The position numbers and the translations under genes are program-made. Below, piece by piece: positions 27,277 to 63,988 of a DNA stretch of 64,000 nucleotides (positions are counted from its first letter, which is position 1; the number at the start of each line of letters is the position of its first letter). The notes under the pieces were generated by a model, which worked only from the letters and a program-made list of their open reading frames with translations, made no database searches and was not told where the DNA came from. This DNA is from a virus, in the IMG/VR virus record IMGVR_UViG_3300037961_005010, positions 1 to 64,000 of that record; one strand, given 5' to 3'.

Positions 27277-29121
27277 ATGGCAACAAATATTACATCAACC
27301 CAACTTGATTTTGGAGGAATAAAAGATAGGCTTAAAGATTATTTAGAAAGTAGAACAGAATTTACTGACTATGACTTTGAAGCTGCAGGTTTATCAAACA
27401 TCTTAGATGTTTTGGCATATAATACACACTTTAATGCTCTAACTGCCAATTTTTCATTAAACGAAGCATTCTTAAATACTGCTCAGCTTAGAAGTTCTGT
27501 AGTAAGTCATGCTGATGTTTTAAGTTTAAACATACGTTCAAAAACATCTTCTCAAGTTGCTTTAAAAGTTTCAGTAGATTTATCATCTGCATCACCTAAA
27601 CCTCCAACAATAACTCTACCAGAAAATAGTACTTTTACTGCTACAGTAGATGGTACTTCCTATTCATTTCATACAGTAGATAGTTATGATGCAGTTGACA
27701 ATGGAAGCGGTCTATATACTTTTAAAAATGATGACGGTGAAGAAGAAGTATTAGCTTATGAAGGTGAAATAGTTAACAAAACATTTTACGTTAGTTCTAC
27801 TGGAGAATACCAAGTCTATATAATTCCAGATCAAAACATAGATACAGCTACAGCAAAAGTTTTTGTATATGACTCTACTACATCTTCAGCGTACACTGAA
27901 TATACAAAAATGTCAGAAGCTATTACAGTAGATGCTAACTCTACATATTATAGATTAAAAGAAGCACCAAACGGTAATTTTGAATTAACTTTTGGTGATG
28001 GAGTTGTTTATGGTAAAGCTCCAACATCTGGACAGAAGATAGTAGTTAGATATGTCAGAACCGCAGGAGATGTAGCAAACGGAGCGAGTTCTCTTGCATC
28101 TACAGAAACTATAACAGTAAATAGTACTGATTACTCTTTAACTGTAACAACTCTTTCTAAATCTGTTGGTGGAGCAGAAAAACAATCAATTGAATCTATT
28201 CGTCAAGAAGCTCCTATAGCTTTTGCCTCACAGCAAAGATTAGTTACGCCTTTAGATTATGAATCACATATTAGATCTAATTACACTACTGTGTCTGGTG
28301 TAAAAGCCTGGAGCGGAGATCAGAATGTACCAATTGATTACGGAAAAATTTATATAAGCTTACAATTTCCAGATACTACAACCGCCTCGACAAAGGCAAC
28401 TGTTCAGAATCAAATACAAACTCAATTAATTGATCCTCTTTCTGTTACATCAGTAACCTCTGAGTTTGTTGATCCAGAAGATGTCTATTTAGAATGTGTT
28501 ACATCATTTAACTATGATCCAGATCTCACAGGTTTAACCGGAGCTAATATGGAATCTAGAGTTAGAAATTTATTGATAGCATATTTTAACACATATTTAA
28601 ACTCGTTTGATAAAGTATTTCGTAGATCTCAAATTCTTGCAGATATCGATGAACTAGATAATGCTATACTGTCATCTAAAATGGATGTTAAGGTGCAAAT
28701 GAGATTATCACCGACTTTTAGTGCTAGTTCTATTTCTTACGACATTAACTTTCCAATGCCAATATCAATTCCTGATGATGTAAATCATATAGTAAAGTCA
28801 GAAAATTACTATAACAGCAATGGTGTATTAGTTTTTGTAAGAAATAAATTAAACACAACTCAGTTAGAGTTAATAAATGCTGCTACTGGTGATGTGATAA
28901 CTAACAATATAGGTTCTTATAATGCTGCAAAAGGAATTGTAAAGTTAGATGATTTTGCTGCTACTTCTGTTCAAAGCGGAAACAGTTATATAAAATTTTC
29001 TGTTACACCTGCAAACCAAGCAGTGGTTAAACCTTTAAGAAATTATATTTTAAAAATAGACCAAGAGAAGATTAAATCAATTGGTTTAAAAGATGATCAA
29101 AATACGAAAGTATCACTGTAA
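27277..29121 (+). CDS. gp6: Baseplate wedge subunit
   Basis: LDF..IK..LK, FTDYDFE, LDVLAYNTH, AQLRSSVVSHA, FGDG..GK, Q.RLVT..DY. Confidence 0.95.
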   Translation: MATNITSTQLDFGGIKDRLKDYLESRTEFTDYDFEAAGLSNILDVLAYNTHFNALTANFSLNEAFLNTAQLRSSVVSHADVLSLNIRSKTSSQVALKVSVDLSSASPKPPTITLPENSTFTATVDGTSYSFHTVDSYDAVDNGSGLYTFKNDDGEEEVLAYEGEIVNKTFYVSSTGEYQVYIIPDQNIDTATAKVFVYDSTTSSAYTEYTKMSEAITVDANSTYYRLKEAPNGNFELTFGDGVVYGKAPTSGQKIVVRYVRTAGDVANGASSLASTETITVNSTDYSLTVTTLSKSVGGAEKQSIESIRQEAPIAFASQQRLVTPLDYESHIRSNYTTVSGVKAWSGDQNVPIDYGKIYISLQFPDTTTASTKATVQNQIQTQLIDPLSVTSVTSEFVDPEDVYLECVTSFNYDPDLTGLTGANMESRVRNLLIAYFNTYLNSFDKVFRRSQILADIDELDNAILSSKMDVKVQMRLSPTFSASSISYDINFPMPISIPDDVNHIVKSENYYNSNGVLVFVRNKLNTTQLELINAATGDVITNNIGSYNAAKGIVKLDDFAATSVQSGNSYIKFSVTPANQAVVKPLRNYILKIDQEKIKSIGLKDDQNTKVSL

Positions 29122-30086
29122 TGAAAACACTTAAGGACCTCAACCGCTTACCCATAGTGGTCAAAAAAAGTTTGGTAAAAGAAGTTTTACCATCTTATTT
29201 TGTAACTGAGTATCCTACTTTAATAACTTTTTTAGACGCTTATTATGATAATTTAGATAGTGATACTAACTTTGGTGATTTGATAAATGATTTAAATACT
29301 ATTAGAGATATAGAAGACAACACATTAAGACAACTTGACTTGATGTTTAAGGAAGTTGGTCTTGGAGTTTCACAAAATCAATTTACTACACCAAGAGAGG
29401 TTATAAGAGACTTCGCTGATTTTTTTAGAGTAAAAGGAACTAAGTTTTCTGCAGAAAGATTTTTTAGAACTTTTTTTAGAGAAGATGTAGAATTAGTATA
29501 TCCTAAAAATAATCTTTTTATAGTAGGCGAATCTGAAATTGGTTTGGATAGTTTGGATGTTTTACAAGATGGAGCTTTACATCAGTTCTTATCTGTGCTT
29601 GTAAAGGCACCAATATCAATAGCAACGTGGGAAAAGCTTTATAGACAATTCGTTCATCCAGCTGGTTTTTATCTAGGGGCAGAAGTTCTTGTGCTTACAG
29701 CACAAACTAATCCCTTAACTGCACCTGATGTAATATTAGATTCTGATGCAGGTAAAGTTGTATATGAAACATCTATAAACTTATTGTCTAACCTAACAGT
29801 AGACAATGATACAACACTTATTCAAACTATGGGTAATACATCATACATAACAGGTGAATCTGATAACGATCAACAATACATTTGGTACAACTTGGAGGGA
29901 CTTTTGGAAACAGATTCTTCATATACCGACAGAAACGCAGATTCAAGTCAAACAATATTTACCGTTAGGATGGAGCCTAACGTGCAAATTAGAGATTATC
30001 GCAATTTGACAATAGATAGTGGAAATCAAACATTTAGTGATATTTATGACGCTGTGCAAGCATCTTATGAACATTATGCAATTTAG
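29121..30086 (+). CDS. Baseplate wedge initiator-like protein (short gp7 homolog)
   Basis: F...YP....FL.AYY, FFRVKGT..S...FFR, FVHPAG; between gp6 and gp8. Confidence 0.65.
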   Translation: MKTLKDLNRLPIVVKKSLVKEVLPSYFVTEYPTLITFLDAYYDNLDSDTNFGDLINDLNTIRDIEDNTLRQLDLMFKEVGLGVSQNQFTTPREVIRDFADFFRVKGTKFSAERFFRTFFREDVELVYPKNNLFIVGESEIGLDSLDVLQDGALHQFLSVLVKAPISIATWEKLYRQFVHPAGFYLGAEVLVLTAQTNPLTAPDVILDSDAGKVVYETSINLLSNLTVDNDTTLIQTMGNTSYITGESDNDQQYIWYNLEGLLETDSSYTDRNADSSQTIFTVRMEPNVQIRDYRNLTIDSGNQTFSDIYDAVQASYEHYAI

Positions 30087-30089
30087 CAT

Positions 30090-30097
30090 TATAAATA
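30090..30097 (+). promoter_or_regulatory. T4-type late promoter
   Basis: TATAAATA upstream of gp8. Confidence 0.75.
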
Positions 30098-30145: not shown

Positions 30146-31504
30146 ATGGTAGCCGTAATAACTGATTTTTTTAAGAAAAGTATAGTACAAGATATCATTG
30201 ATGGTATTAATGATTCTAACGACAACTATTACATTGGTGTCGGTAGATCAGAGTATTGGGATAGTGCTGACAATCCCCCAACACCAGTCAATGATATGAG
30301 AGATATACGTGAATTCAGACAAAGCATGCAAGCAGTTAAAAAGATTCTTTCAACATCTTTTGCTGTAGCGAGAGTAAATTGGACAACTGGTACAACTTAC
30401 AGTCAATATGATGATACACAAGTTGGTCATCCATCTCCAAATTACTACGTTTTAAATCAAAACCATCAGGTTTATGTATGTTTAAGAACTGGAAGAGATG
30501 CGACAGGTGCAACTGTTCCATCTACAGTAGAACCAACTAATTCAAACAATCATGCTTTTGAAACTGCAGATGGTTATGTTTGGAAATTTATTTACACAAT
30601 CTCAGCACTAAGTGCTAATTATTTTCTTTCAGCTAACTATATGCCTGTAACTTATATTGCAGGTGAATTAGACTCAGACGCTACAGGAATTCAATTAAAG
30701 CAAAAAGAAATACAAGATACTGCTATTGGTGGAATGATTACATCAATTGTTGTTACTGACGGTGGATCCGGCTACACATCAAAACCAACAGTAACAATAA
30801 CTGGAAATAGTACTGATAGCGATTTTAACGTAACAGCATTTATAGATTCATCTACAAATACTGTTTCAAAAATAGAATTTGACAATGATTCGTCTACGCT
30901 ATCTTATCCAACAGGATTTGATTTTGCAGAAGTAACCATTACTGGTGGTGGTGGATCTGGCGCACAGGCAAGGCCTATTTTATCAGACCACAACGGAATA
31001 GGTCATGACGCAAGATCAGATCTAAAAGCTAATGGACTAATGTTGCACACTAAAACTGCTGGTAACCTGGATGATTTTATAATCTTACAAGATTTTCGTC
31101 AAATAGGTATTATCAAGAATCCTAAAAAGGGCGATGGTTCAGATTCAGATTTAACTGCAGAAACAGCAAATGCTCTTAAGTCAATGAGAATTGATCCAAT
31201 AACTTTAGCTTTTAATTCTGACAATGTTATCATAGGTGGAACCACTGGCGTAAAAGCTTGGGTAGATGAAGTAGATTCAGATATTCTTTACTATCACCAA
31301 AATGATTCTACAGGTTATGGATCTTTTCAAGTAGGAGAAACATTAACAGAATCAGATGGAACTGGAGATGGAACTATCGCTCAATTAATAGATAGCTCTG
31401 AGGTTGATCCATTTTCAGGTGAAGTTTTATACATCGATAATAGAACAGCTGTTGCTAGAACAGCAAATCAAACAGAAGATATTAAAATAATTCTTCAATT
31501 ATAA
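30146..31504 (+). CDS. gp8: Baseplate wedge subunit
   Basis: YYIG.GR...W, R.NWT.GT.Y..YDD, VY.CL, DGYVWKF.YT, FRQIGII.NP, SGE.LYIDNR, Q.EDIKIIL. Confidence 0.9.
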   Translation: MVAVITDFFKKSIVQDIIDGINDSNDNYYIGVGRSEYWDSADNPPTPVNDMRDIREFRQSMQAVKKILSTSFAVARVNWTTGTTYSQYDDTQVGHPSPNYYVLNQNHQVYVCLRTGRDATGATVPSTVEPTNSNNHAFETADGYVWKFIYTISALSANYFLSANYMPVTYIAGELDSDATGIQLKQKEIQDTAIGGMITSIVVTDGGSGYTSKPTVTITGNSTDSDFNVTAFIDSSTNTVSKIEFDNDSSTLSYPTGFDFAEVTITGGGGSGAQARPILSDHNGIGHDARSDLKANGLMLHTKTAGNLDDFIILQDFRQIGIIKNPKKGDGSDSDLTAETANALKSMRIDPITLAFNSDNVIIGGTTGVKAWVDEVDSDILYYHQNDSTGYGSFQVGETLTESDGTGDGTIAQLIDSSEVDPFSGEVLYIDNRTAVARTANQTEDIKIILQL

Positions 31505-31517: not shown

Positions 31518-34500
31518 ATGACAATTACGTATACCGAAAATATTTTTGAAACTCGATACAGAGACGATTACGCTGACAGTGATAACTTTCACCGCATTCT
31601 CTTCAATAAAGGGAAAGCTCTTCAAGCTCGTGAACTTACACAGTTACAAACTATCATACAAAAACAAATTGAAAGATTCGGGCGTAATATTTTTAAAGAA
31701 GGTGCTACAGTTATTCCTGGTGGAATAACATTAAATGATTACTATGAGTTTGTAAAACTAGATACTACATCTTATTCACTTCCATCTGATGGATCTATAG
31801 ATTCTGAAACATTTTTAGGTCAAACATCAGGTGTTAGAGTAAAAGTAATTGAAACTCAAGCTATAAGCGGGAGCGATCCAGCTACGCTATATGTATCCTA
31901 TACAAACACATTAAATGCTACCACTGGAGCTGATCCTATACGTTTAACTCCAGGTGAAGATATAGTAGGAATAAACACTGGTACAGTGCTTACTGTACAA
32001 ACAACAAATACTAGTTCTAATCCTGCCGTTGGTAAAGCAGTACGCTTTTCAGTAGGTCAAGGTTTCTACTTTGTAAATGGATTTTTTGTACAATCTCAAG
32101 CTCAGTCAATAGTATTATCAAAGTATTCGCCAACTGTTACAGTTGAAGTTGGATTTAAGGTAACACAGGACATTGTTACAGTTGATGATGATCAAAGTCT
32201 ATACGATAATTCTGGTGCTTTACCTAACACTACAGCAGCCGGTGCTGACAGATATAGAATAACATTAACTCTTACAACAAAAGATCTGATTGATTCAGAT
32301 GACACTTTTGTATATCTTGCTAAAATAAGAAATTCAGAAGTATTAGAAGCCGTGACTGGTTTCGATCAGTATGAAAAAATAAACGACTTATTAGCATTAA
32401 GAACTAAAGAAGAATCTGGTAATTATTTAGTAAGACCATTTAAGATATCATATGATTCAGATGATTCTGATGGAAGCATTCTTAAATTAAAAGTTAGTGA
32501 AGGTACCGCATACGTAAATGGCTATAGAGCTCATAGAGATATTCAGACAGTATTAGATGTAAATAGAGCTAGAGATACTTTAACTATAGAAAATGAAGTA
32601 GTGGCTGCAGACTATGGAAATTACGTTGTAGTTAATAACTTACTAGGGATACCTAACTATAGTTTAAATGATGAGTTAAACTTAAGAGATGACGCTACAT
32701 ATGGAACAGGCACAGATATAGGTACTGCTAGAGTAAGAGCAGTTGATGCTAATGCTGATGGCACATATAAAATATATCTTTTTAAAATAGAAATGAATGA
32801 TGGTTTTTATTTTAGGGATATACGATCAATTGGTAAATCTACAACTGATAACGCCCAGCTAGTTTTAGAAAACGGCGTGCCAGTTTTACAAGAAGCCGAT
32901 AAGAATATTCTATTGTTTAAATTGCCAAATGGTCGTCCTTCTAACATGACTGATGTTTCATTTCAAGTTCAAAGAAAATTCTTAGCAACAACTGATTCAG
33001 CTGGAACCTTGGGTCTATCTTTGTCAGGAATTGGAGAAACATTTTCCAATACATCAGATTGGATTGTAGCAGTTGACTCTAGTGGATCGATTGTAACTCC
33101 TACTATTTCTGGATCAGGTACAACTTCTGCTACTGTATCAGGTGCACCAACTAATACACAATTAGAATTTTTAGCTTATGTAAACAAAAGTCAAGCTTCA
33201 CAAAGAAATAAGACTGCAGATGAAACAATAGCTCTTGGTGCAATAGAGTCTGATGGATCTGGAATTGAATACGTTGACTTAGGAGTTGTAGATGTATATG
33301 ATTATGAATATATAAGAGCAGATTCAGCAGCAGGTCCTGATATATCTCATAAATTTAACTTAGACGGTGGACAAAATGATGCCTTTTATGATATCGGTCG
33401 ACTAGTTCTAAAATCTGGACAAACTGTTTCTGGTAACGTAGCCTATAAGATAAACCACTTTTTACACAGCGTATCAGGTGATTTCTTCAGCATCAATTCA
33501 TATTCAAGCATAAATTATGCAGACATACCAAAACATACATTAAAAGATGGAACAGAAGTAGATATAAGAGATTATATTGATTTTAGACCAACTATTAACT
33601 CAGCAGGAACTTTTACAGGTTCTACTGCTAGAGTAAATGAGTTATTAAAACCAACTGATCTTGTAACTGCAGACGTGACTTATTATCTTCCAAGGTTTGA
33701 TAAAATCATTATAGATGAACAAGGGATTATATCAGTACTTGAAGGTGTATCTTCACTAGAGCCTAAGTTTAAAGAAGTTCCAGACAATGCTTTAGAACTT
33801 TATAGAGTTAAAATGAATCCATACACTGATACTGAAAGTGATATGAGTTTTCAATTTATCGAAAACAAAGGCTACACTATGTCTGATATTGGTAAAATTG
33901 AAAAAAGAGTTGATCAGTTAGAAGAAGTTACTGCTTTAACACTGTTAGAATTAGATACAAATAGTTTAGAAGTATTAGATTCAGCTGGTAGTAACAGAAC
34001 AAAATCAGGATTTTTAGTAGATAATTTTGCAGATCACTATCATTCTGCTACAACATCTCAAGAATATAAAGCATCTATAAATCCACAGGATAAAACATTA
34101 CACCCTTCATTTGTAGAAAAGAACGTAGGTTTAGTTTATGATTCAGACAACTCTACAAACACTATAATTAAAGGTGACAATGTTTACATCAAATATGATC
34201 AAGAATCTTATATCCTGCAAGATCAAGTTTCAAGGACTGAAAATGTAAATCCATTTGCAGCAATACAGTTCAACGGAACAGTGATGCTATCTCCTTCTTC
34301 AGATGAGTGGAGAGATACTCAAAGAGCTGCAGATAGAGTTATTCAAGGTGGAACTAGACTTGATACGAATCAAGAACTTTTAAGAGAATCAATAAAATGG
34401 AATTGGAATGGAGTCGATCAAAACGGAACTGCTGTCGAAAGAGTTGTTACAAGTGAAACAATACGACAAGTTGTTGATGATAGAGTTATAGATGTAGCAG

Positions 34501-56285: not shown

Positions 56286-56315
56286 AAATTTAATTTTATT
56301 CTTTCATCATAACAA

Positions 56316-56332: not shown

Positions 56333-56354
56333 AGAGAGAAGTTAGGAATAGAAA

Positions 56355-57974
56355 ATGGTGACAAACAGAAAGCTCGCTGACTTAGGTTCTGCAGTAGACA
56401 GCGCGGCTACTGGTAATTTTCTCACAGTTGATGATTCTGGAGGTAAGTTCAGATCGATAGCATACTCAGAGATAGCTAGTAGACCAACTGTTTTAGATTC
56501 AGCTGCAGCTCAAGCTATAATAGACTCATCTTATATTCAAGCGAGACAGACAGACGTAGGGCTAGATTCGAGTCAAATTACGAGTTTAGTCGACTCTTCA
56601 TACATCACTGCTAGACAATCTACAACAGGCTTAGATTCAGCCGGTGCACTTAATCTAGTAGACTCTGCATATCTCTCAGCAAGATCAACAACAGGTTTAG
56701 ACTCATCAAAAGTAACTAATTTAATAGACTCAGATTATATATCTGGAAAAGCTGCAGTAAATTCAGGTTTTAAAACTTTTACATATTTTGCTTCAGATGG
56801 GCAAACAGACTTTTCAGGATCTGATTATAACGGTGAGGTTTTGTCTTACACCGCAGATGGTATTATAGTCTGGCTTAATGGCGTGCAGATACTTGATACT
56901 GATGACTACACAGCTTCTAATGGAACAAGCGTTGCTTTAACGGCCGGTGCTGATTCAGGAGCAAGTTTAGTTGTAGGCAGCTGGGCGCTAGGAGGAAGTG
57001 GCAGTAGCGGTGGAGTTTTTTATGGAGACAGGGCTTTTATAGGTGATGGTACATCAGGTACTCCTGCTGATGGACAAGTAGATTACTTTGATATAACAAC
57101 TACATCAAACGCTGCTGACTTTGGAGATTTCCAAACCACCAGTACAAACACTATTAATCATTCATGTTCTGTAAGTAATGCTACAAATATAGTTTTTTAT
57201 GAGCAATCAACTAACGCAGGTAGTTCTAATGACTACCAAACAATATCAGTAATAACATGTGCAACTGTAGGGAACGCATCAGACTTCGGTGATCAGTATC
57301 ATTATAGGTATGGCTCTGGTGGTGCATCAAATGGTGTGACTGGAATGTTTGCAGGTGGTTGGGGTCGACCAGGATCAAACAGTGGAGCGACAGCTGCCCC
57401 ATTAGATGAGATTGATTATGTGACAATAGCCACGGCCGGAAACGCTACAGATTGGGGAAGTACTCTTTCATCTGGAAGATACGGAATGACTAATGCCGGA
57501 ATAAGCAATGCAGATAAAGCCGTATATGTAGGAGGTGCTATTGGCGCTCCATCTTATGCAGCTCAAAATACAATAGAAACTTTTACATGGACTGTCGGAT
57601 CAAGTGCTACAGATTTTGGAGATTTAACATCAGGAACTTTAGATCACGCATGTGCTCAAAGCACTACGAGAGGATTAATTGCTGGTGGTACATCTGGCAC
57701 TCTTAGTAACGCATATAATACTATAGAATACATAACAATAGCTTCTCCAGGAAATGCTACAGATTTTGGTGATTTGACTACAAACAAATCTAGAAATGCT
57801 GGGTGTAGTAACACGACTAGAGCAGTGTTTGGAGGAGGTTTTTCAGCTTCTCCTATAAATGAAGTAAACGTAATCGAGTATGTAACAATTGCAACTACAG
57901 GCAATGCTCAAGATTTTGGAGATTTGACTACAGTAAAAGACCGCTGTTTCGCTGATACTGGAAATGCGTCATAG
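56355..57974 (+). CDS. Long-stalk fibre protein: LDS/VDS repeats + propeller
   Basis: RKLADLG, four LDS..VDS.Y..AR units, GQT.F..NG..LSY domain, repeat propeller. Confidence 0.8.
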   Translation: MVTNRKLADLGSAVDSAATGNFLTVDDSGGKFRSIAYSEIASRPTVLDSAAAQAIIDSSYIQARQTDVGLDSSQITSLVDSSYITARQSTTGLDSAGALNLVDSAYLSARSTTGLDSSKVTNLIDSDYISGKAAVNSGFKTFTYFASDGQTDFSGSDYNGEVLSYTADGIIVWLNGVQILDTDDYTASNGTSVALTAGADSGASLVVGSWALGGSGSSGGVFYGDRAFIGDGTSGTPADGQVDYFDITTTSNAADFGDFQTTSTNTINHSCSVSNATNIVFYEQSTNAGSSNDYQTISVITCATVGNASDFGDQYHYRYGSGGASNGVTGMFAGGWGRPGSNSGATAAPLDEIDYVTIATAGNATDWGSTLSSGRYGMTNAGISNADKAVYVGGAIGAPSYAAQNTIETFTWTVGSSATDFGDLTSGTLDHACAQSTTRGLIAGGTSGTLSNAYNTIEYITIASPGNATDFGDLTTNKSRNAGCSNTTRAVFGGGFSASPINEVNVIEYVTIATTGNAQDFGDLTTVKDRCFADTGNAS

Positions 57975-57997
57975 TAAAGTTTAAAGGAAAGTAATAA
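57960..57997 (+). repeat. 38-bp gene-junction direct repeat, copy 1
   Basis: GGAAATGCGTCATAGTAAAG(T/C)TTAAAGGAAAGTAATAA, one mismatch to 62697-62734. Confidence 0.85.
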
Positions 57998-59553
57998 TGG
58001 GTTTAAGTAGAAAATTAGCTGATCTAGGTAAATTCATAGATTCTGCCGCCACGAGTGACTTCTTAACGGTTGACGATTCAGGCGGTAAGTTTAGAGATGT
58101 TTTATGGACAGAGATAGCTGGAAAACCAACTACTCTAGACTCTGCGGCTGCACAAGCGATTGTGGACTCGGCATATGTCCAGGCCAGACAAGTTGACGTA
58201 GGCCTAGACTCAGCATTAGTAACATCATTAGTAGACTCATCTTACGTTCAAGCAAGGCAGGGCGACGTAGGCCTAGACTCAGCAGGAATAACTGGAATTG
58301 TAGACTCAGCATATGTAAATGCTAGAATAACTTCTGGTCTCGATTCAGCTGGAACGATAAGCTTGGTAGACTCTACTTATGTAGATGCAAGAACAACTGC
58401 TAACTCAGGATTTAAGAACTATAGGTACACAGCAACAGCTGGTCAAACCGCGTTTACTAACTCAGATGAAAATGGTAGTGTGTTATCTTATTCTGGCGAC
58501 GCCTTACTTGTTTTTTATAACGGTGTTGTTCTGGAACCTACGGTTGACTATAGTACTTCAGGAAGTAACACTGTAACTTTGACAGAAGGTGCAGATTCTG
58601 GAGTTTCTGTGAACGTTGCAACGTGGACAATTCAATCAAGCGGCGGTAGTACCTCTTTTTGGGGTGGAGATAGGGGACTTCTTGGTGGAGGAGATACTGG
58701 AGGCTCGCCAGGAACTAATGTTATTGATTATTGGGATATTACATCATCAGGAAATGCTACTGACTTTGGTGATTTAGTTAGCTCAAAGCACAGTATGTCA
58801 GATGGTACTGGTAATACTACTCGAGGAGTATTTTGTGGAGGTTATGTCGGTTCAACGTTTACAACTGTAGATGAGATTGATTATGTAACTGTTTCAACAA
58901 CAGGCAACGCTCAAGATTTTGGCAATTTAACTACTGGATCATATGTAGGAGCTACAGCAGGTAATGGAACTTATGGTGTAACTGCTATAGGTTATGATAA
59001 TGGAGCTACTGTTGTAAATACTTTAGATTACTTTACGATTGCCACCACAGGAAACGCATCAGACTTTGGTGATTTAACAACAGCTAGATACGCAACGGCA
59101 GGAGCTGAAAACGGTACTTATTCGTTATACATGGGTGGACAGTCACCGATAACTAATGTCGTTGACTATATAACCGTAGCTTCTCCAGGAAATGCTACTG
59201 ACTTTGGTGATCTGACTCAAAGCCTTCGTGGTGGGGCGGCTTGTGCTGATGCTACTCGAGCGGTTGTTGGCGGTGGATTTGACAGTTCTCCAGGAAGAAC
59301 TAACGTGATGGAGTATTTTACTGTTGACACCCCAAGTAACGGCACAGATTTTGGCGATTTGACAAACTCTATCAATAGCTCCCATGCTTGCTCTAACACT
59401 ACTTATGGCACATGGGCTGGAGGTAGCGATAATTCTGGTTCGGTTAATGTTATTCAAATTGTGACTATTCAAACAGCAGGGAATGCTACTGATCACGGGG
59501 ATCTAACATCATCACGGAACGGCGGGGCAGCATGTTCAGGCGCCGCTTCATAA
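57997..59553 (+). CDS. Long-stalk fibre protein: LDS/VDS repeats + propeller
   Basis: Same architecture as 56355-57974. Confidence 0.8.
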   Translation: MGLSRKLADLGKFIDSAATSDFLTVDDSGGKFRDVLWTEIAGKPTTLDSAAAQAIVDSAYVQARQVDVGLDSALVTSLVDSSYVQARQGDVGLDSAGITGIVDSAYVNARITSGLDSAGTISLVDSTYVDARTTANSGFKNYRYTATAGQTAFTNSDENGSVLSYSGDALLVFYNGVVLEPTVDYSTSGSNTVTLTEGADSGVSVNVATWTIQSSGGSTSFWGGDRGLLGGGDTGGSPGTNVIDYWDITSSGNATDFGDLVSSKHSMSDGTGNTTRGVFCGGYVGSTFTTVDEIDYVTVSTTGNAQDFGNLTTGSYVGATAGNGTYGVTAIGYDNGATVVNTLDYFTIATTGNASDFGDLTTARYATAGAENGTYSLYMGGQSPITNVVDYITVASPGNATDFGDLTQSLRGGAACADATRAVVGGGFDSSPGRTNVMEYFTVDTPSNGTDFGDLTNSINSSHACSNTTYGTWAGGSDNSGSVNVIQIVTIQTAGNATDHGDLTSSRNGGAACSGAAS

Positions 59554-59565
59554 GGAAATAAAAAA

Positions 59566-61122
59566 ATGGCTTTTAGTAGAAGTAGAAAATTAGGTAACTT
59601 AGGTAAGTCGATAGATAGCTCGGCACTAAGCGATTTCTTAACGGTTGACGACTCAGGTGGTAAGTTTCGCGATGTACAATATTCCGAAATAACTGGAAAG
59701 CCTACTCTACTAGACTCTTCAACTCTTTCATCTCTCGTAGATTCATCTTATATTCAATTAAGACAAACTGATGTTGGAATTGATTCCGGTCAAATTACTA
59801 ATTTAGTTGACTCATCTTACGTTCAAGCAAGACAAGGTGCTGGTGGTTTAGACTCAGCTAAAACTACTAACTTAATTGACTCATCTTACGTAGCTGCAAG
59901 AATAACAGCTGGATTAGACTCATCTTCTACAATAAACTTAGTAGATTCAGATTATGTAGGAGCTAGAACATCTGCTAATTCTGGTTTTACATACTACAAG
60001 TATACATCAACAGCAGGACAAACTGCTTATACTGGTGCTGATGATAATGGAGAAACATTATCTTACAGTACATCTACTGACAATATATTAGTTTTTTATA
60101 ACGGCATTTTGCTCATACCAACAGATGATTATACAACTTCTGGTGGAGACACTGTAACTCTTACTACTGCAGCAGATTCTGGTTCTCCAGTGACAATAGG
60201 AAGATGGGCTGTTGCTGCTCCGGCCGGTAACTTTATATCTTGGGGTGGAGCTCGAGCTTTGACTTTTATGCAAGGACAAACTAACGGTGACGCGATAAAT
60301 TATTTTGCTATGGCAACACCAGGAAATGCTTCAACTTTTGGTACTACATCAGGTGTTTCAAACGATGGCGGTAGTGCAGTTTCTGACGCAACATATGCAG
60401 TGTTTGCCGGTCACACTAATAGTACATCATATGACGATGTTCAATATGTAACAGTATCTACACTAGGCAATACTTCTACTGGAATGGTTATAGATCCTTA
60501 TGATGACATGGGATCAGCTTCTGATGGTACTAATGCTTTTTATTTTGGTGGATATAGAACAAATCCTTGGTTAAACAAAATTCAAAAGTTTTCTATATCT
60601 ACATTTTCAGGAACGGCATCAGATTTTGGTGATCTAGTAGAAGGTTTACTAGGCCTATGTGGTTTTGGAAATACTGATAGAATCATAGCAGCTGGTGGCA
60701 GCGCATATGCAAACTTGTATAGAAACACTATACAATACTGGAACCCTTCATCATCCACAAACGCATCAGACTTTGGCGATTTAAATTTTAGTACACACAG
60801 TCTTGGTGGATGTAGCGATTTAACGAGAGGTGTAGTGGGAGGAGGTTATAATGGATCTTCATATGAAAATAGCTTAGATTATGTTACTATAGCGTCTACA
60901 GGTAATGCTACAGATTTTGGAGATTTAAACTATTCAAGATCAGGAACAAAATCTGCTGGAACTGATGGTGTATACGGCGTATTTGCTGGAGGTTATAACG
61001 GCAGTGCTAGAGATGACGGAATAAATAGAATTACCATTCAAACAACCGGAAACTCCACAGACTTTGGTAATTTAACTGAAGGTGGTTCAACGGCTTCTAC
61101 AACAGCAGGTAATGCTTCATAA
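59566..61122 (+). CDS. Long-stalk fibre protein: LDS/VDS repeats + propeller
   Basis: Same architecture. Confidence 0.8.
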   Translation: MAFSRSRKLGNLGKSIDSSALSDFLTVDDSGGKFRDVQYSEITGKPTLLDSSTLSSLVDSSYIQLRQTDVGIDSGQITNLVDSSYVQARQGAGGLDSAKTTNLIDSSYVAARITAGLDSSSTINLVDSDYVGARTSANSGFTYYKYTSTAGQTAYTGADDNGETLSYSTSTDNILVFYNGILLIPTDDYTTSGGDTVTLTTAADSGSPVTIGRWAVAAPAGNFISWGGARALTFMQGQTNGDAINYFAMATPGNASTFGTTSGVSNDGGSAVSDATYAVFAGHTNSTSYDDVQYVTVSTLGNTSTGMVIDPYDDMGSASDGTNAFYFGGYRTNPWLNKIQKFSISTFSGTASDFGDLVEGLLGLCGFGNTDRIIAAGGSAYANLYRNTIQYWNPSSSTNASDFGDLNFSTHSLGGCSDLTRGVVGGGYNGSSYENSLDYVTIASTGNATDFGDLNYSRSGTKSAGTDGVYGVFAGGYNGSARDDGINRITIQTTGNSTDFGNLTEGGSTASTTAGNAS

Positions 61123-61133
61123 GGGAATCATAA

Positions 61134-62711
61134 ATGCCAAACTATAGTAATAGAAGACTTGCAAACCTAGCTAATGCAGTTGACAGCGCTACTTCCGGAA
61201 ACTTTTTAACAGTAGATGATTCATCTCAAGGTAAGTTCTTATCTCCTGTGTGGAGTACACATATAACCAATGTGCCTAGTGGTCTTTTAGATTCTTCTTT
61301 AGCTCAAGGATTATTTGATTCTGCATATATTCAAGCTAGACAAACTGACGTAGGTCTAGACTCAGCATTAGTAACATCACTTATAGACACAACATATGTT
61401 CAAGCCAGAGCTGGAGGCGCTGGTTTAGATTCTGCAGCGGCAATTGCTCTTATAGACTCTGCGTATGTTGCTGCAAGATTAACATCAGGATTAGATTCTG
61501 CTGGAATTTCATCTATTATAGATTCAGACTACGCTGCAGCGAGAGTATCAGCCGGATCTGGATTTCAAATGTATGAGTACAAGGCAACTGCTGGACAAAC
61601 AGTATTTGACTCTACTGATGATAACGGAGAAACATTAGCATATGATGCAAATGGAATACTTGTATTTCTCAATGGTGTTTTATTACTAGACACGTTTGAC
61701 TACACCGCGTCAAATGGAACAAGTGTTACACTAACAGATAGTTCTGACTCAGGTGCTAATTTACAAATTATAAAATACGGTATTGCTACTAGTGGAGGTG
61801 GAACTAGTGCTTTATATTATGGTGATCGTGGACTTAGATTTGGTGGTTATGACACAGGCGTTGATCATTCAAATGTAATAGATTACTGGAACATAGCCTC
61901 CTCTACAGGAAACGCTGTAGACTTCGGCGATCTAACTCGAAAAAGAAGTTATATTGCTTCTTGTTCTAATGCATCTAGAGCTCTTTCATTTGGTGGTCAA
62001 TCATCTTCCCCCTTTGCTAGCGGATCAGATATAATAGATTATGTTACAATAGCCTCTACCGGCAATGCCACGGATTTTGGTGACATGCTTTCCGCGAGAA
62101 ACCGAGCAGCATGTGAAAGCAATGGAACAAGAGCTATTCATGGAGGTGGCACTGACGGAAGCAGTAATGTTAATACCATAGAGTATGCCACAATAGCAAC
62201 CACAGGAAACACTATTGACTTTGGTGATTTATCAGTAGCTAGAGAGCGTCTTTCGGCAGCATCTAACGGGTCGAGAATAGTTTTTATCGGTGGTCAGGCA
62301 GGCGGTTATTCCAACACTATGGATTATGTTACTGGCGATACTACAGGAAATGCGCAAGACTTTGGCGACCTTCTAACTCCTCTTAGTAACCACGGAGCTA
62401 CAGGAACAGGATCTGGAGATCGAGCTATAGTGTTTGGTGGCCTGGCCAGTGGTAGCTATCACAATGTTATTCAATATTTTCCTGTTTCAACAACAGGAAA
62501 CTCGTCAGATTTCGGAGACCTATTAGGAAATCACGCCTATGCTTCCGCTTGTTGTAATTCAACCAAAGCTCAGTTTGTTGGGGGTTACAATCCTGGTGAT
62601 ATAGACATAATACAACAAGTAACAATGGCTACTCTAGGAAACGCAACAGATTATGGAGATTTAACTGAAGCGGTGTATAGTTCTGGTGCAACTTCAGGAA
62701 ATGCGTCATAG
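61134..62711 (+). CDS. Long-stalk fibre protein: LDS/IDS repeats + propeller
   Basis: Same architecture. Confidence 0.8.
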   Translation: MPNYSNRRLANLANAVDSATSGNFLTVDDSSQGKFLSPVWSTHITNVPSGLLDSSLAQGLFDSAYIQARQTDVGLDSALVTSLIDTTYVQARAGGAGLDSAAAIALIDSAYVAARLTSGLDSAGISSIIDSDYAAARVSAGSGFQMYEYKATAGQTVFDSTDDNGETLAYDANGILVFLNGVLLLDTFDYTASNGTSVTLTDSSDSGANLQIIKYGIATSGGGTSALYYGDRGLRFGGYDTGVDHSNVIDYWNIASSTGNAVDFGDLTRKRSYIASCSNASRALSFGGQSSSPFASGSDIIDYVTIASTGNATDFGDMLSARNRAACESNGTRAIHGGGTDGSSNVNTIEYATIATTGNTIDFGDLSVARERLSAASNGSRIVFIGGQAGGYSNTMDYVTGDTTGNAQDFGDLLTPLSNHGATGTGSGDRAIVFGGLASGSYHNVIQYFPVSTTGNSSDFGDLLGNHAYASACCNSTKAQFVGGYNPGDIDIIQQVTMATLGNATDYGDLTEAVYSSGATSGNAS

Positions 62712-62734
62712 TAAAGCTTAAAGGAAAGTAATAA
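62697..62734 (+). repeat. 38-bp gene-junction direct repeat, copy 2
   Basis: See 57960-57997. Confidence 0.85.
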
Positions 62735-63988
62735 ATGAGTCAATACAGTGAAATAAGAGTTAACACTATAACAGATTCAACTGGATCTGTCGCTGTCGAT
62801 TTTGAAAATGGACTTACTATAGGAGGAAAGGCACTAGACGATTCAGGCGGAGCTATTCAATTAAATAAAATAATAGATTCAGCTGACGCGCCTTCAGATT
62901 CTGCTTCTTATTATGGCTTAATGTGGTACGACAGCGCTAACACTAGATTGAATATATACACTCCAATTGGTTGGAGAACAATAAGAGGTGATCAGGCTCC
63001 TAGCGGTGGTGGAGGTAGTTCGAACGCAACTCATGCTTTTGCTCTTGGTGGAACATACTACAACGGAAACTATTACGTTACCGCTGCAAATCACATTGAA
63101 ACATTAACAATAGCAACTACTGGTAACGCAACTGATTTTGGTGACATAACTGCTTCTGGTTCTATCGCACTAGGTATTTCAGAAATAGCAGCAGGAGGAG
63201 ATCATAGCAGAATCGTACTAGGTTCGGCGTTAGTAGATAACGGATATGGTAACGCAGGAGATCTTGCTAATGGTACCGGAATACATTACATAACTTGTGC
63301 GACCCCAGGTAATACTGTAGACTTTGGCGATCTTCCATCAGATTATTTTAATGAAAACGGAGGCGATGCTGGGGCTGGTTACATGCACTTTAGGTCCAAT
63401 GGATCTGGTAGCAGCACTAGTATTGTTACAGTTACAATTCAAACTACTGGAAACGCATCTGATCTAATAGATTTAAGTGGTGCGGAGGGATATTCATTTG
63501 GCGGTGTAAGTTCTAATGATACAAGAGCGCTTGCTTTTGGTGGAAGATATGGTAACGCTTTTGGTGTTGCAGTTGATTATTTCACTCCAGGAAATTCGTC
63601 AGTAGCAGCTGCTGACTTTGGTGATCTCTTGTTGGGTTCTAATAAACCAGCAGTAACAAACGACAATGTAAACAGAACAATTTATCACGAATCATATAAT
63701 GGCTCTGGATTTTCCTGGGGAAGTTTATCAAATACTTTAGCCTATCTTGACACAGCGACTTTAGGAAACGCAGTGGATTTTGGTGATTTATCATCGGCTA
63801 GACAAGGAGGAGGAGCTTCGGCCAATAACACTAGAGCTCTGTTTTTTGGTGGAGAATCAAATAGTTCAAGCGATAGCTATGCACACAATACGGTTGATTA
63901 CGTGACAGTAGCTACTCCAGGAAACGCTACAGACTTCGGTGATGTTTCAAGAAGAAGACAAACATGCGGTTCTGAGGGAATAGGTTAA
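62735..63988 (+). CDS. Short-adaptor fibre protein with variant propeller (ends SEGIG)
   Basis: N-terminus resembles 50486-51646; propeller resembles 55038-56285. Confidence 0.75.
   Translation: MSQYSEIRVNTITDSTGSVAVDFENGLTIGGKALDDSGGAIQLNKIIDSADAPSDSASYYGLMWYDSANTRLNIYTPIGWRTIRGDQAPSGGGGSSNATHAFALGGTYYNGNYYVTAANHIETLTIATTGNATDFGDITASGSIALGISEIAAGGDHSRIVLGSALVDNGYGNAGDLANGTGIHYITCATPGNTVDFGDLPSDYFNENGGDAGAGYMHFRSNGSGSSTSIVTVTIQTTGNASDLIDLSGAEGYSFGGVSSNDTRALAFGGRYGNAFGVAVDYFTPGNSSVAAADFGDLLLGSNKPAVTNDNVNRTIYHESYNGSGFSWGSLSNTLAYLDTATLGNAVDFGDLSSARQGGGASANNTRALFFGGESNSSSDSYAHNTVDYVTVATPGNATDFGDVSRRRQTCGSEGIG

What the first reader, a model, noticed from the sequence alone, without database searches (positions are those of the whole stretch)
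29121..63988. Candidate phage-encoded virion O-glycosylation system: Asp-Ser motif concentrated in outer virion proteins
Seen: the dipeptide D-S (mostly DSA/DSS/DSD/DSG/DST) recurs across mutually unrelated outer-baseplate and fibre proteins. Hand counts: 10 in gp8 (452 aa), 6 in the gp7-like protein (321 aa), 7 in 36939-37877 (312 aa), 7 in 43277-43915 (212 aa), and 11 in the first ~205 aa of 57997-59553 versus 1 in its ~300-aa propeller. Inner or non-virion proteins lack this: 2 in gp6 (614 aa), 0 in gp48, 1 in gp32. Because the motif appears in non-homologous proteins, it is not one expanded repeat. The same window encodes seven or eight glycosyltransferase-like genes, five methyltransferases and a sulfotransferase. 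Known: D-(S/T) is the O-glycosylation sequon of Bacteroidetes proteins, and some mycobacteriophages glycosylate their virions with their own GTs. Inference: DS is a sequon for a phage-built methylated/sulfated glycan that coats stalks and baseplate but spares the receptor-binding propellers.
Basis: partly seen in the sequence, partly recalled or inferred. Interest (0 to 1): 0.88.

Follow-up and report, generated by a model that had tools for sequence, protein, structure and literature searches.

The report
Asp-Ser motif in phage fibre stalks
The excess of Asp-Ser pairs in this marine T4-like phage's tail-fibre stalks and outer baseplate is real, but it sits mostly in a conserved, undescribed 22-residue stalk repeat and looks like a folding motif, not a proven sugar-attachment site.

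Summary
In 20 fibre ORFs DS occurs 131 times against 71 expected (z 8.2). SD is not enriched and DT is depleted.

Most of the signal is not independent. 77 of the 131 DS fall into five recurrent motif classes. 46 of them lie in a tandem repeat, G-Φ-DSAAxΦxLΦ-DSAYΦQARQ. Masking the five classes leaves 54 DS against 57 expected. The repeat recurs 746 times in the 120 best homologues and has no Pfam, PDB or literature match.

In gp8 and the gp7-like protein the excess is conserved across 79 and 65 orthologues. It is absent from T4, S-SM1, C48C1 and HTVC008M.

The extended motif Φ-D-S-small fits helix caps and strand-exit turns. It does not fit the Bacteroidota motif.

Glycosyltransferase-like genes do sit in the late fibre operon. 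That layout is already published for pelagimyophages, where it is read as host-surface modification.

The sequon idea survives several of its own tests but has no direct support. I put it at about 0.12 and a structural motif at about 0.65. The scan has noted similar sequon proposals on other phage DNA.

The parts
29121..30086 (+). gp7-like baseplate wedge protein (321 aa), 6 DS / 4 SD / 2.0 expected
   Evidence: Pfam PF23786 E 4e-13. Counts. 65 orthologues give DS 338 / SD 209 / expected 162.7.
30146..31504 (+). gp8 baseplate wedge protein (452 aa), 10 DS / 9 SD / 3.9 expected. DS at residues 39, 176, 234 and 377 is kept in 42-49 of 51 orthologues.
   Evidence: Pfam PF09215. Profile match to T4 gp8 1n7z and to 9f4a. 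Conservation. AF2 pLDDT 87.3, with all 10 DS in loops or at element ends.
31518..36470 (+). VrlC-like giant structural protein (1650 aa), not DS-enriched: 11 DS / 17 SD / 11.6 expected
   Evidence: 61 orthologues give DS 531 / SD 569 / expected 454.5. The name comes from the homologous S-SM1 and HTVC008M annotations.
36939..37877 (+). Structural-module protein of unknown family (312 aa), 7 DS / 5 SD / 2.7 expected. Five of the 7 DS are Φ-x-DSD.
   Evidence: No Pfam or PHROG match. 6 orthologues give DS 27 / SD 27 / expected 14.7.
37884..43215 (+). Enzyme cassette inside the fibre operon. It holds a 148-aa unknown, a QueC/Asn-synthase-like ATP-pyrophosphatase (38346-39026), a methyltransferase-like gene (39020-39574), GT-A-like genes 39568-40272, 40265-41050 and 42520-43215, an unknown (41037-41669) and a GT8-like gene (41666-42559).
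   Evidence: Pfam, PHROG and NCBIfam results. Iterative profiles join 39568, 40265, 42520 and 3399-4043 in one family of 32 members. Atlas features score 0.99 to GT8-bearing clusters and 0.97 to NDP-sugar-transferase clusters.
43277..43915 (+). Fibre-related structural protein (212 aa), 7 DS / 4 SD / 2.7 expected
   Evidence: PHROG tail-fibre and structural families. Counts and contexts.
48187..63988 (+). Tandem array of paralogous fibre genes, each a DS-rich N-terminal stalk plus a C-terminal β-propeller built on a GNAxDFGDL blade motif. The array continues to 66912 beyond the window.
   Evidence: Sequences. AF2 of 57997-59553 gives an all-β C-terminal half at pLDDT >90. Weak Kelch matches. 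Stalk and propeller counts.
58135..58395 (+). Four tandem units of the roughly 22-residue DS repeat (residues 47-133 of 57997-59553), two DS per unit
   Evidence: D48, S49, D57, D94, S95, D103 and S104 are invariant in 54 aligned homologues.
56493..56753 (+). The same repeat array in paralogue 56355-57974 (residues 47-133)
59710..59970 (+). The same repeat array in paralogue 59566-61122 (residues 49-135)
61287..61547 (+). The same repeat array in paralogue 61134-62711 (residues 52-138). One unit has DT in place of DS.
1..4641 (+). First sugar-tailoring cluster. It holds a partial sulfotransferase-like ORF, three methyltransferase-like genes, two GT25 genes, one GT8/Nucleotid_trans-like gene and one unknown with a very weak MptE/DUF115 match.
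   Evidence: Pfam results. The PF01973 match at 4318-4425 is only 11.8 bits. The PF01501 match at 3606-3749 is 15.9 bits.
30090..30097 (+). T4-type late-promoter motif TATAAATA, 49 nt upstream of gp8. It is the last such motif before the cassette. The next ones are at 41516 (inside a cassette gene) and 43240.
   Evidence: There are 12 matches in the window against 9.2+/-3.0 expected, so the motif count alone is not significant. No + strand terminator-like site lies between 34849 and 45990.

Best explanation
The DS excess is the footprint of short structural motifs of the form Φ-D-S-small, which this phage lineage uses again and again in its outer tail proteins.

In the fibre stalks the motif occurs twice per unit of a previously undescribed tandem repeat of about 22 residues, G-Φ-D-S-A-A-x-Φ-x-L-Φ-D-S-A-Y-Φ-Q-A-R-Q. 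There Asp/Ser most likely cap and staple short helices. This step is inferred from the sequence pattern and a low-confidence model.

In gp8, the gp7-like protein and the β-sandwich domain of the stalks, DS sits where a β-strand or helix ends and a turn begins. This is shown on a confident model for gp8.

The many copies arose by duplication of repeat units and of whole fibre genes, not by independent gain. The propellers lack DS because their Asp and Ser are fixed in other blade motifs.

The glycosyltransferase cassettes are a separate feature: the 'host recognition cluster' already described in marine T4-like phages. Their target, whether the host envelope or the virion, is not settled here.
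For: 1. 77 of 131 fibre DS fall in five recurrent motif classes. Masking them leaves 54 vs 56.9+/-6.7.
2. In the stalks the next most enriched dipeptides include RQ, AR, VD, LD, SA and YV, all of which are parts of the same repeat.
3. In 746 repeat units from the 120 best homologues, Y (93%), R (85%) and L/I (85%) are about as conserved as the unforced upstream D (80%) and S (86%).
4. Φ at both -1 and D+4, the hydrophobic-staple spacing, occurs in 49 of 167 outer DS against 13.7 expected. Elsewhere in the genome it is 13 of 92 against 10.6.
5. The AF2 helices of 57997-59553 span 49-64, 75-87 and 96-110. They begin at, or up to three residues after, the first DS of each unit.
6. In the gp8 model (pLDDT 87.3) all 10 DS are in loops or at element ends, and two of the four conserved ones sit in tight hairpins.
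7. At gp8 residue 39 the solved T4 gp8 has W-SS-NE and 9f4a has W-SD-NE, so it is a polar loop there too.
8. Other exposed proteins are not enriched: VrlC, 43930-44874, paralogue 64000-65241, sheath, capsid and portal.
9. DT is depleted: 36 vs 69.7.
Against: - The stalk model has pLDDT below 50, so the helix-cap reading rests mainly on sequence pattern.
- The second DS of each unit lies inside the predicted helix, not at its start.
- Some motif classes used for masking (any DS in the first 35 residues, any DS after W/Y) were defined after looking at the data.
- DS excess in gp8 is conserved and specific to one clade. It is absent from four relatives that also lack an in-operon enzyme cassette in the stretches read. 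A purely structural reading explains this only as lineage history.
- Loops are also where a modification would sit.
- A repeat can be both structural and glycosylated, as in AIDA-I-type adhesins (recalled, not from a call).
Confidence: 0.65

Rival explanations
1. Φ-D-S-small is the acceptor motif of a cytoplasmic, late-expressed phage glycosyltransferase system (cassette 37884-43215, perhaps with cluster 1-4641). This system O-glycosylates stalk repeats and outer baseplate loops before assembly, leaving the receptor-binding propellers bare.
For: - There is directional excess of DS over SD in the fibres and the gp8 family.
- The context is well defined: -1 is hydrophobic in 60% of sites against 29% background, and +1 is small in 91% against 49%.
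- DS is in loops or at element ends in gp8.
- Stalks have 74 DS vs 21 expected and propellers 6 vs 21.
- GT-A-like genes lie between structural genes, with no late-promoter motif or terminator-like site separating them from gp8.
- Enzyme homologues lie within 3-5 kb of VrlC in 16 of 22 DS-rich loci, and directly upstream of DS-repeat fibres in L086-L089, L092, L111 and L112.
- Four DS-poor relatives lack an in-operon cassette in the stretches read.
- There is a precedent in mycobacteriophages (Freeman 2023, seen only as cited in passages).
Against: - No chemistry has been done.
- No residual DS excess remains outside the recurrent motifs.
- VrlC, sheath and capsid are not enriched.
- DT is depleted.
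- The gp7-like protein stays DS-rich (1.83x) where gp8 is not (1.26x), and their O/E values correlate weakly (rho 0.23, p 0.08, 59 loci).
- Co-occurrence is not significant (16/22 vs 3/6) and amounts to roughly one phylogenetic contrast.
- C48C1 has sugar-nucleotide genes and a weak GT8-like ORF but no DS excess.
- No recognisable protein-O-glycosyltransferase family was found. The only hint is an 11.8-bit MptE/DUF115 match.
Confidence: 0.12
2. The DS and DSD sites are ligands for metal ions (for example Ca2+) or form inter-chain hydrogen-bond ladders that stabilise the trimeric stalks and the baseplate periphery in sea water.
For: - DSD is frequent in the baseplate set. Five of the 7 DS in 36939-37877 and several in gp8 and the gp7-like protein are DSD.
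- 45728-46339 has a weak EF-hand-like match and repeated DGSGN loops.
- D at +1 occurs in 30 of 167 outer DS.
Against: No canonical Ca-binding pattern such as DxDxDG was recognised in the repeat consensus. In the stalks the residue after DS is mostly Ala or Ser. No structure is available to show coordination.
Confidence: 0.1
3. The host's own Bacteroidota-type general O-glycosylation system modifies these proteins at D-(S/T)-hydrophobic sites.
For: Only the shared D-S core. DSA accounts for 54 of 167 sites.
Against: - That system acts in the periplasm on non-cytoplasmic proteins, uses both Ser and Thr, prefers L/I/V after the acceptor and loses activity with Gly (PMC12871550, passages).
- Here L/I/V follow in 6 of 167 sites and D or G in 52 of 167. 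DT is depleted.
- The nearest cultured relatives infect SAR11, Methylophilales and cyanobacteria.
Confidence: 0.01
4. The excess is a by-product of amino-acid composition or chance.
For: In this genome's five outer-baseplate ORFs DS equals SD, and z is only 3.5 among 400 dipeptides tested.
Against: - Within-protein shuffles give z 8.2 for the fibres and 12.8 for the stalks.
- 79 gp8 orthologues have DS 543 vs 257 expected, with four columns at least 80% conserved.
- The rest of the genome is DS-depleted.
Confidence: 0.02

Closest known systems
Host recognition cluster (HRC) of pelagimyophages and cyanomyophages (Zaragoza-Solas et al. 2020, mSystems, PMC7029224; passages read)
   Same: Both have a hypervariable island between VrlC and the neck genes that mixes tail-fibre genes with glycosyltransferases, GT8 being the commonest family. 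Here the island runs from VrlC (31518-36470) to gp13 (genome 68219). The gp13 identification is by 43% identity to the C48C1 adaptor. The island holds the cassette and the fibre array.
   Different: The paper reads the transferases as modifiers of the host O-chain and, in the passages I read, does not mention a DS motif or this stalk repeat. No CsgG homologue was found in this 65%-complete record. gp6 is only 35% identical to HTVC008M, so membership of the pelagimyophages proper is open.
Mycobacteriophage virion glycosylation (Freeman et al. 2023, Cell Host Microbe; known here only from citing passages in PMC12619734 and PMC12801897)
   Same: In both cases phage-encoded glycosyltransferases are linked with structural proteins, so the idea that a phage sugar-coats its own virion has a precedent.
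   Different: There the glycans sit on C-termini of capsid and tail-tube subunits. Here the candidate sites are internal Φ-DS motifs of fibre stalks and baseplate wedge proteins, and capsid and tube are not DS-enriched. No chemistry exists for this phage.
General O-glycosylation of Bacteroidota, motif D-(S/T)-(A/L/V/I/M/T) (review PMC12871550; passages read)
   Same: Asp directly precedes the candidate Ser, and Ala is common after it.
   Different: That system is periplasmic, lipid-linked and restricted to non-cytoplasmic proteins. Thr is accepted, L/I/V lead at +1 and Gly abolishes glycosylation. Here DT is depleted, L/I/V follow in 6 of 167 sites and D or G in 52 of 167.
Helix N-cap with hydrophobic staple, and Asx/ST turns (textbook protein-structure motifs; recalled, not from a call)
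   Same: Both show a Φ-[D/S]-x-x-x-Φ spacing, with small or polar residues after the cap and Asp/Ser at turn entry. The spacing is present in 49 of 167 outer DS against 13.7 expected. DS is at strand or helix ends in the gp8 model.
   Different: No experimental structure of the repeat exists. The stalk model is low-confidence, and one DS per unit is predicted inside a helix.
Autotransporter adhesins AIDA-I/TibA, whose repeats are glycosylated on Ser by the cytoplasmic heptosyltransferases Aah/TibC (recalled; also named in earlier scan notes)
   Same: It is a working example of a cytoplasmic enzyme glycosylating Ser residues that sit in a short structural repeat of a fibrous protein. This is what the sequon reading would work like.
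   Different: No heptosyltransferase relative or heptose pathway was looked for or seen here. The repeats are unrelated in sequence.

Membership tests
Bacteroidota general O-glycosylation substrates | The acceptor is Ser or Thr after Asp, with both used and only a slight Ser preference | tested here: not met
   DT is depleted: 36 vs 69.7 expected in the fibres, and O/E 0.68 in 52 gp8 sequences. The feature is taken from PMC12871550.
Bacteroidota general O-glycosylation substrates | The residue after the acceptor is preferentially L, I, V, T, A, S or M, and Gly is not tolerated in B. fragilis | tested here: not met
   The +1 residue in 167 outer DS is A 54, S 34, D 30, G 22, T 12 and L+I+V 6. 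The AILVMT set makes up 43% against 39% background.
Bacteroidota general O-glycosylation substrates | The substrates are non-cytoplasmic (signal peptide or membrane) and the glycan is transferred in the periplasm | not testable with these tools
   No signal-peptide predictor was on hand. Tailed-phage virions assemble in the cytoplasm (established knowledge).
Bacteroidota general O-glycosylation substrates | The host belongs to Bacteroidota | tested here: inconclusive
   The host is unknown. The nearest named phages by gp6 are C48C1 (no host given), Pelagibacter HTVC008M, Methylophilales Melnitz and Synechococcus phages.
Phage-encoded virion glycosylation (mycobacteriophage type) | Glycosyltransferase genes are encoded by the phage next to structural genes | tested here: met
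   Cassette 37884-43215 lies between structural genes. Its GT-A-like members are supported. GT25 genes lie at 2112-3451.
Phage-encoded virion glycosylation (mycobacteriophage type) | Glycans are carried on C-terminal parts of capsid and tail-tube subunits | not tested
   I did not examine the C-termini. Capsid (genome 79280-80608) has DS 3 vs 2.0 expected and tube (74371-74904) has 0 vs 0.5.
Phage-encoded virion glycosylation (mycobacteriophage type) | There is chemical proof of glycan on virion proteins | not testable with these tools
   This needs virions or recombinant protein and mass spectrometry.
Host recognition cluster of marine T4-like phages (PMC7029224) | A variable island lies between VrlC and the neck genes and contains tail fibres | tested here: met
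   VrlC-like is at 31518-36470. The fibres run from 43277 to genome 66912. gp13, gp14 and gp15 lie at genome 68219-70686, by 43-55% identity to C48C1 proteins.
Host recognition cluster of marine T4-like phages (PMC7029224) | Glycosyltransferases, mostly GT8, lie inside the island | tested here: met
   Enzyme homologues are present in 19 of 28 related loci that have at least 3 kb after VrlC.
Helix N-cap / hydrophobic staple motif | Hydrophobic residues sit at N' and N4 around a D/S/T/N cap | tested here: met
   49 of 167 outer DS have both, against 13.7 expected. In the unforced first half of the 746 repeat units, position -10 is L/V/I/F in 78% and position -5 is V/I in 47% and T in 34%. The second half was selected by a pattern that already required these residues, so it does not count.
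Helix N-cap / hydrophobic staple motif | A helix actually starts at the motif in a structure | tested here: inconclusive
   The AF2 helices 49-64, 75-87 and 96-110 begin at, or up to three residues after, the first DS of each unit, but pLDDT is below 50 over residues 1-136. No solved relative exists.

The most novel reading that the evidence does not exclude
A widespread clade of uncultured marine T4-like phages uses late-expressed, soluble GT-A enzymes encoded inside the fibre operon. These enzymes O-glycosylate serines of a Φ-D-S-small motif, which is stamped twice per unit on a 22-residue stalk repeat and on surface turns of gp8 and the gp7-like protein. The result would be sugar-coated fibre stalks with bare receptor-binding propellers. 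This would be a cytoplasmic, sequon-directed virion glycosylation system in Gram-negative-infecting phages.
Probability: 0.12. Interest if true: 0.8.

Novelty: new member of a known kind. Interest (0 to 1): 0.35.

Why it matters
If the structural reading holds, the useful product is descriptive. It defines an undescribed and abundant stalk repeat: 746 units in the 120 best homologues, and 439 proteins at E<=0.001, with no Pfam, PDB or literature match. The repeat marks the adaptor or shaft part of a large family of marine phage fibres and separates it cleanly from the propeller tips. That helps annotation and host-range work on uncultured phages.

If the minority reading holds, it would be the first sequence-defined acceptor motif for phage-encoded virion glycosylation outside the actinobacteriophages. 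It would also change the published view that the glycosyltransferases of the host recognition cluster act on the host envelope.

Either way, co-expressing one stalk with the cassette is a cheap and decisive test. It would also speak to the many similar motif-plus-glycosyltransferase proposals in this scan.

Tried and rejected
**Composition or chance.** Rejected by within-protein shuffles and by the orthologue families.

**A general property of T4-like outer baseplate or fibre proteins.** Rejected. T4 gp8 has 3 DS vs 1.6 expected, gp10 4 vs 3.5 and gp12 1 vs 2.0. S-SM1 gp8 has 4 vs 3.4 and VrlC 10 vs 15.1. C48C1 gp8 has 3 vs 2.7. HTVC008M gp8 has 4 vs 4.1.

**Known repeat family.**
- Pfam found nothing on the window paralogues.
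- Pfam found no family for the repeat in 6 repeat-rich homologues. One of the six had only three sub-threshold matches to unrelated families.
- The PDB sequence search gave only a chance-level hit, E 0.0068, to glucose-6-phosphate isomerase.
- tblastn of the stalk against 50,697 phage records matched only the β-sandwich part (residues 117-210) in pelagiphage and roseophage fibres, not the repeat. HTVC011P's fibre has 2 DS vs 4.4 expected.
- Zero papers contain the string DSAYVQAR.

**Concerted shift of all outer proteins in one clade.** Only weakly supported. The gp7-like protein stays at 1.83x where gp8 drops to 1.26x, and rho is 0.23 with p 0.08.

**Co-occurrence with glycosyltransferases.**
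- PF01501 searches of five related records gave only sub-threshold matches, in 3 of 5.
- The locus-level test gave 16 of 22 against 3 of 6. It sees only 3-5 kb after VrlC and depends on homology to this window's own enzymes.

**Curli CsgG as a pelagimyophage marker.** Not found in this 65%-complete record, which is uninformative.

**Maf/DUF115-type protein glycosyltransferase in 4036-4641.** There is only an 11.8-bit match against a 34.6-bit cut-off, and nothing in Pfam at E<=5. I treat it as a lead, not a finding.

**Late-promoter argument.** TATAAATA is not over-represented in the window as a whole: 12 matches vs 9.2+/-3.0, and 21 of 100 shuffles reach 12. Only the intergenic placement before structural genes is suggestive.

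**Supplements.** Supplementary files of papers were closed. Fig. S1 of PMC12871550 and the gene tables of PMC7029224 may hold relevant detail that I did not see.

Full report
**What the window is.** The window is the first 64 kb of a single 121,083-bp virus record that CheckV estimates as 65% complete. It is a T4-like myovirus. gp32, the baseplate hub and wedge proteins, gp5, gp6, a gp7-like protein and gp8 are recognised by Pfam. Downstream genes match the neck, terminase, sheath, tube, portal and capsid proteins of phage C48C1 at 43-73% identity. By gp6 the nearest named phages are C48C1 (39%), Pelagibacter phage HTVC008M (35%), Methylophilales phage Melnitz (34%) and Synechococcus phages (31-34%). 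The host is unknown.

**Check of the observation.** Positions are listed. Results of 500 within-protein shuffles:

| Group | DS observed vs expected | SD | DT |
|---|---|---|---|
| 20 fibre ORFs (43277 to genome 66912; 7,748 aa) | 131 vs 71.2+/-7.3 (z 8.2) | 63 vs 72.4 | 36 vs 69.7 |
| 5 outer-baseplate ORFs (29121-37877; 2,820 aa) | 36 vs 20.9 (z 3.5) | 37 vs 21.1 | n/a |
| Remaining 117 ORFs | 93 vs 119.9 | n/a | n/a |

- In the outer-baseplate group DS and SD are symmetric, because many sites are Φ-DSD.
- In 10 propeller-bearing paralogues the stalks hold 74 DS against 21.1 expected. The propellers hold 6 against 21.3.
- The pattern of 'stalks and outer wedge rich, propellers and inner proteins poor' is therefore real.
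- VrlC, the largest outer protein, is not enriched: 11 vs 11.6.
- Sheath, tube, portal and capsid are not enriched either.

**Where the DS sit.** Reading the contexts shows that the fibre genes are paralogues built from shared modules.
- Five genes carry four or five tandem units of a repeat of about 22 residues: 56355, 57997, 59566, 61134 and genome 65254. 48187 and 49735 carry it partly. Each unit has two DS.
- A second stalk family shares an N-terminal ΦDStGxPDSA...WYDSxN module. Its members are 50486, 51643, 53839, 55038 and 62735, with 64000 and 45728 as weaker members.
- I sorted the 131 fibre DS into classes: 46 in the tandem repeat, 17 in the first 35 residues, 9 after an aromatic residue, 5 in an ADSG loop, and 54 others.
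- Masking the first four groups leaves 54 DS against 56.9+/-6.7 expected. The whole excess is carried by recurrent motifs. Two of these classes were defined after seeing the data, which inflates this result somewhat.
- DS ranks 4th of 400 dipeptides in the fibre group. DF (z 11.1), FG (8.3), YV (8.1) and GN (7.9) come from the propeller blade motif and from the same stalk repeat.
- In the stalks alone DS is first (z 12.8). Among the next most enriched are RQ, AR, VD, LD, SA and YV, all of them pieces of the repeat.

**The repeat elsewhere.**
- A search with the first 210 residues of 57997-59553 found 439 proteins at E<=0.001 among 4,964 candidates of 284-907 residues, nearly all from marine metagenomes.
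- In the 120 best I counted 746 units, with DS 2,209, SD 594 and 723 expected.
- The consensus is G-[LV]-D-S-A-A-[TVI]-[IT]-x-L-[IV]-D-S-A-Y-[VI]-Q-A-R-Q.
- In the half not forced by my search pattern, D is 80% and S 86% conserved. That is about the same as Y (93%), R (85%) and L/I (85%).
- Six DS pairs of 57997-59553 are invariant or at least 90% conserved in 54 aligned homologues of 41-67% identity.
- No Pfam family covers the repeat. No solved structure matches. No paper in the library holds the string DSAYVQAR.
- In IMG/VR the repeat appeared only in loci that also carry this phage group's fibre or structural neighbours, or in loci made up only of giant fibre genes (L106, L110). It was absent from the other fibre loci found through a different shared motif.

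**gp8 and the gp7-like protein.** These do not contain the stalk repeat.
- In 52 aligned gp8 sequences (47-90% identical) the mean is 8.4 DS against 4.25 SD and 3.3 expected.
- DS is the only D/S-type dipeptide with columns conserved in at least 80% of sequences. There are four such columns and ten more at 20-80%.

Counts in 81 IMG/VR loci:

| Protein | Orthologues | DS | SD | Expected |
|---|---|---|---|---|
| gp8 | 79 | 543 | 301 | 257.3 |
| gp7-like | 65 | 338 | 209 | 162.7 |
| gp6 | 58 | 107 | 115 | 200.2 |
| gp25-like | 44 | 8 | 38 | 32.8 |
| VrlC | 61 | 531 | 569 | 454.5 |

- The gp8 excess depends on lineage. At 39% identity or more it is 2.31x. At 38% or less it is 1.26x.
- It is absent in T4, S-SM1, C48C1 and HTVC008M.
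- The gp7-like protein stays at 1.83x in the low-identity group. The two proteins' ratios correlate weakly: rho 0.23, p 0.08, 59 loci.

**Structure.**
- The AF2 model of gp8 is confident (pLDDT 87.3). All ten DS lie in loops or at the last residue of a strand or helix.
- Of the four conserved sites, 234 and 377 sit at tight β-hairpins. 39 is in a long loop. 176 is in the loop before helix 181-192.
- At site 39 the solved T4 gp8 reads W-SS-NE and entry 9f4a reads W-SD-NE. This loop is polar in phages with no known virion glycan.
- The model of 57997-59553 is confident for the β-sandwich and the propeller, but below pLDDT 50 for residues 1-136. The helices it draws (49-64, 75-87, 96-110) begin at, or up to three residues after, the first DS of each unit and run through the second.

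**Sequence context.**
- The residue before DS is hydrophobic in 60% of 167 outer sites, against a 29% background.
- The residue after DS is A, S, D, G or T in 91%, against 49%.
- Hydrophobic residues at both -1 and D+4 occur in 49 of 167 sites against 13.7 expected. For DS elsewhere in the genome the figure is 13 of 92 against 10.6.
- That spacing is the hydrophobic-staple and N-cap pattern of helix starts. D-S-(D/S/G) is also typical of type I and Asx turns. Both statements come from my own knowledge of protein structure, not from a call.

**The enzymes.**
- Cluster 1-4641 holds two GT25 genes above the Pfam cut-off, a GT8/Nucleotid_trans-like gene below it, an FkbM and a Methyltransf_24 methyltransferase above it, a weaker third methyltransferase, and a sulfotransferase-like fragment below the cut-off.
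- The cassette 37884-43215 had almost no direct HMM hits.
- Iterative profiles built from related loci join 39568-40272, 40265-41050 and 42520-43215 with 3399-4043 in one family of 32 members.
- Protein-language-model neighbours name 41666-42559 as GT8-like (score 0.99) and 40265-41050 as a nucleotide-diphospho-sugar transferase (0.97).
- This gives seven glycosyltransferase-like genes, two of them solid. It also gives four methyltransferase-like genes, two solid.
- TATAAATA motifs lie just upstream of gp48, gp25-like, gp8, 43277, 44913, 49735 and 56355. None lies between 30097 and 41516. No + strand terminator-like site lies between 34849 and 45990. The cassette is therefore probably read with the late structural genes. 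This is an inference, and the motif count in the window is not above chance.
- Homologues of the cassette lie within 3-5 kb after VrlC in 19 of 28 related loci. They also lie directly upstream of DS-repeat fibre genes in seven further loci.
- This layout is already in print as the 'host recognition cluster' of pelagimyophages and cyanomyophages. The authors note many glycosyltransferases there, mostly GT8, and argue that they modify the host O-chain to block co-infection (PMC7029224, passages).

**Weighing the two readings.**

For the sequon:
- DS exceeds SD.
- The context is well defined.
- The sites are exposed.
- Late-operon transferases are present.
- Four DS-poor relatives have no in-operon cassette in the stretches I read.

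Against the sequon:
- No excess remains outside recurrent structural modules.
- Other positions in the repeat are equally conserved.
- VrlC, sheath and capsid show no enrichment.
- DT is depleted.
- The shift between gp8 and the gp7-like protein is not concerted.
- The co-occurrence test is non-significant: 16 of 22 DS-rich against 3 of 6 DS-poor loci.
- No recognisable protein-O-glycosyltransferase family was found.

The Bacteroidota analogy fails on the motif and on cell biology. That system modifies only non-cytoplasmic proteins in the periplasm, accepts Thr, prefers L/I/V after the acceptor and does not tolerate Gly (PMC12871550, passages). Here L/I/V follow DS in 6 of 167 sites and D or G in 52.

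A repeat can be both structural and glycosylated, so the sequon reading is not excluded. I give it about 0.12 and a purely structural motif about 0.65. The rest goes to metal or inter-chain bonding variants and other readings.

**Earlier notes of this scan.** Notes on this genome already flagged the cassette, the first cluster and the paralogue array. A note on another genome flagged the same (V/I)DS(A/D)Y(V/I)xAR motif. Many other windows carry 'sequon plus glycosyltransferase' proposals with different short motifs: 888 notes hold the search words, and eight were shown. I took two paper leads from them (PMC7029224, PMC12871550) and checked both in the text.

**Verdict.** What is new is modest: an abundant, undescribed stalk repeat of marine T4-like phage fibres, and a lineage-specific Φ-D-S-small motif in gp8 and the gp7-like protein. 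The glycosyltransferase-rich fibre island is already known. The question of what those enzymes modify remains open and can be tested by co-expression and mass spectrometry.

Noticed in passing
window 48187-63988, continuing to genome 66912: At least 12 propeller-bearing fibre paralogues lie in tandem: 48187, 50486, 51643, 53839, 55038, 56355, 57997, 59566, 61134, 62735, 64000 and 65254. Each has blades built on an IDYVTIATxGNAxDFGDL motif. The propellers are strongly depleted in DS, 6 vs 21.3 expected in the 10 paralogues scored.
   Followed up: partly
window 3399-4043, 39568-40272, 40265-41050, 42520-43215: These four genes belong to one divergent GT-A family (32 members in the related loci) that Pfam barely detects. 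One copy lies in the first cluster and three lie in the fibre-operon cassette.
   Followed up: partly
window 6627-7451 and 7429-7749; genome 106117-106851, 107106-107966, 107929-108303: Radical-SAM paralogues and a small partner protein occur at three places in this genome. In relatives (L089, L092, L112) their homologues sit inside the enzyme cassette next to the fibre genes.
   Followed up: no
window 4036-4641: The ORF gives a very weak match to PF01973 (MptE/DUF115), at 11.8 bits against a cut-off of 34.6. To my recollection this family includes flagellin glycosyltransferases (Maf). It is a lead only.
   Followed up: partly
window 18797-19282 (- strand): A TnsA-like endonuclease N-terminal domain protein (PF08722, E 2.6e-18) sits inside the baseplate/tail module. 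Its C48C1 counterpart in the same position is annotated 'head closure'.
   Followed up: no
window 30146-31504 compared with genome 79280-80608: gp8 is only 35% identical to C48C1's gp8, while capsid, portal and large terminase are 67-72% identical. The outer wedge proteins therefore evolve much faster than the core.
   Followed up: partly
L085 29948-39991 (phage C48C1, CDS0201): This 3,347-residue protein is made largely of R-T/S-R-x-S-T/A-Y-x-G-T-Y-type short repeats and is DS-poor (8 vs 14.8 expected). It shows that a related phage builds its fibre from a different short motif.
   Followed up: no
L106 and L110 (IMG/VR contigs): Giant proteins of 4,605 and 4,592 residues carry 121 and 120 DS (32 and 26 SD) and 9-10 full repeat units. 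They are the most extreme carriers of the motif that I saw.
   Followed up: no
window 57997-58626, residues 117-210: The β-sandwich domain after the repeat is shared at 33-49% identity with tail-fibre proteins of Pelagibacter, Roseobacter and Limnohabitans podophages. This hints at module exchange among phages of marine and freshwater heterotrophs.
   Followed up: partly
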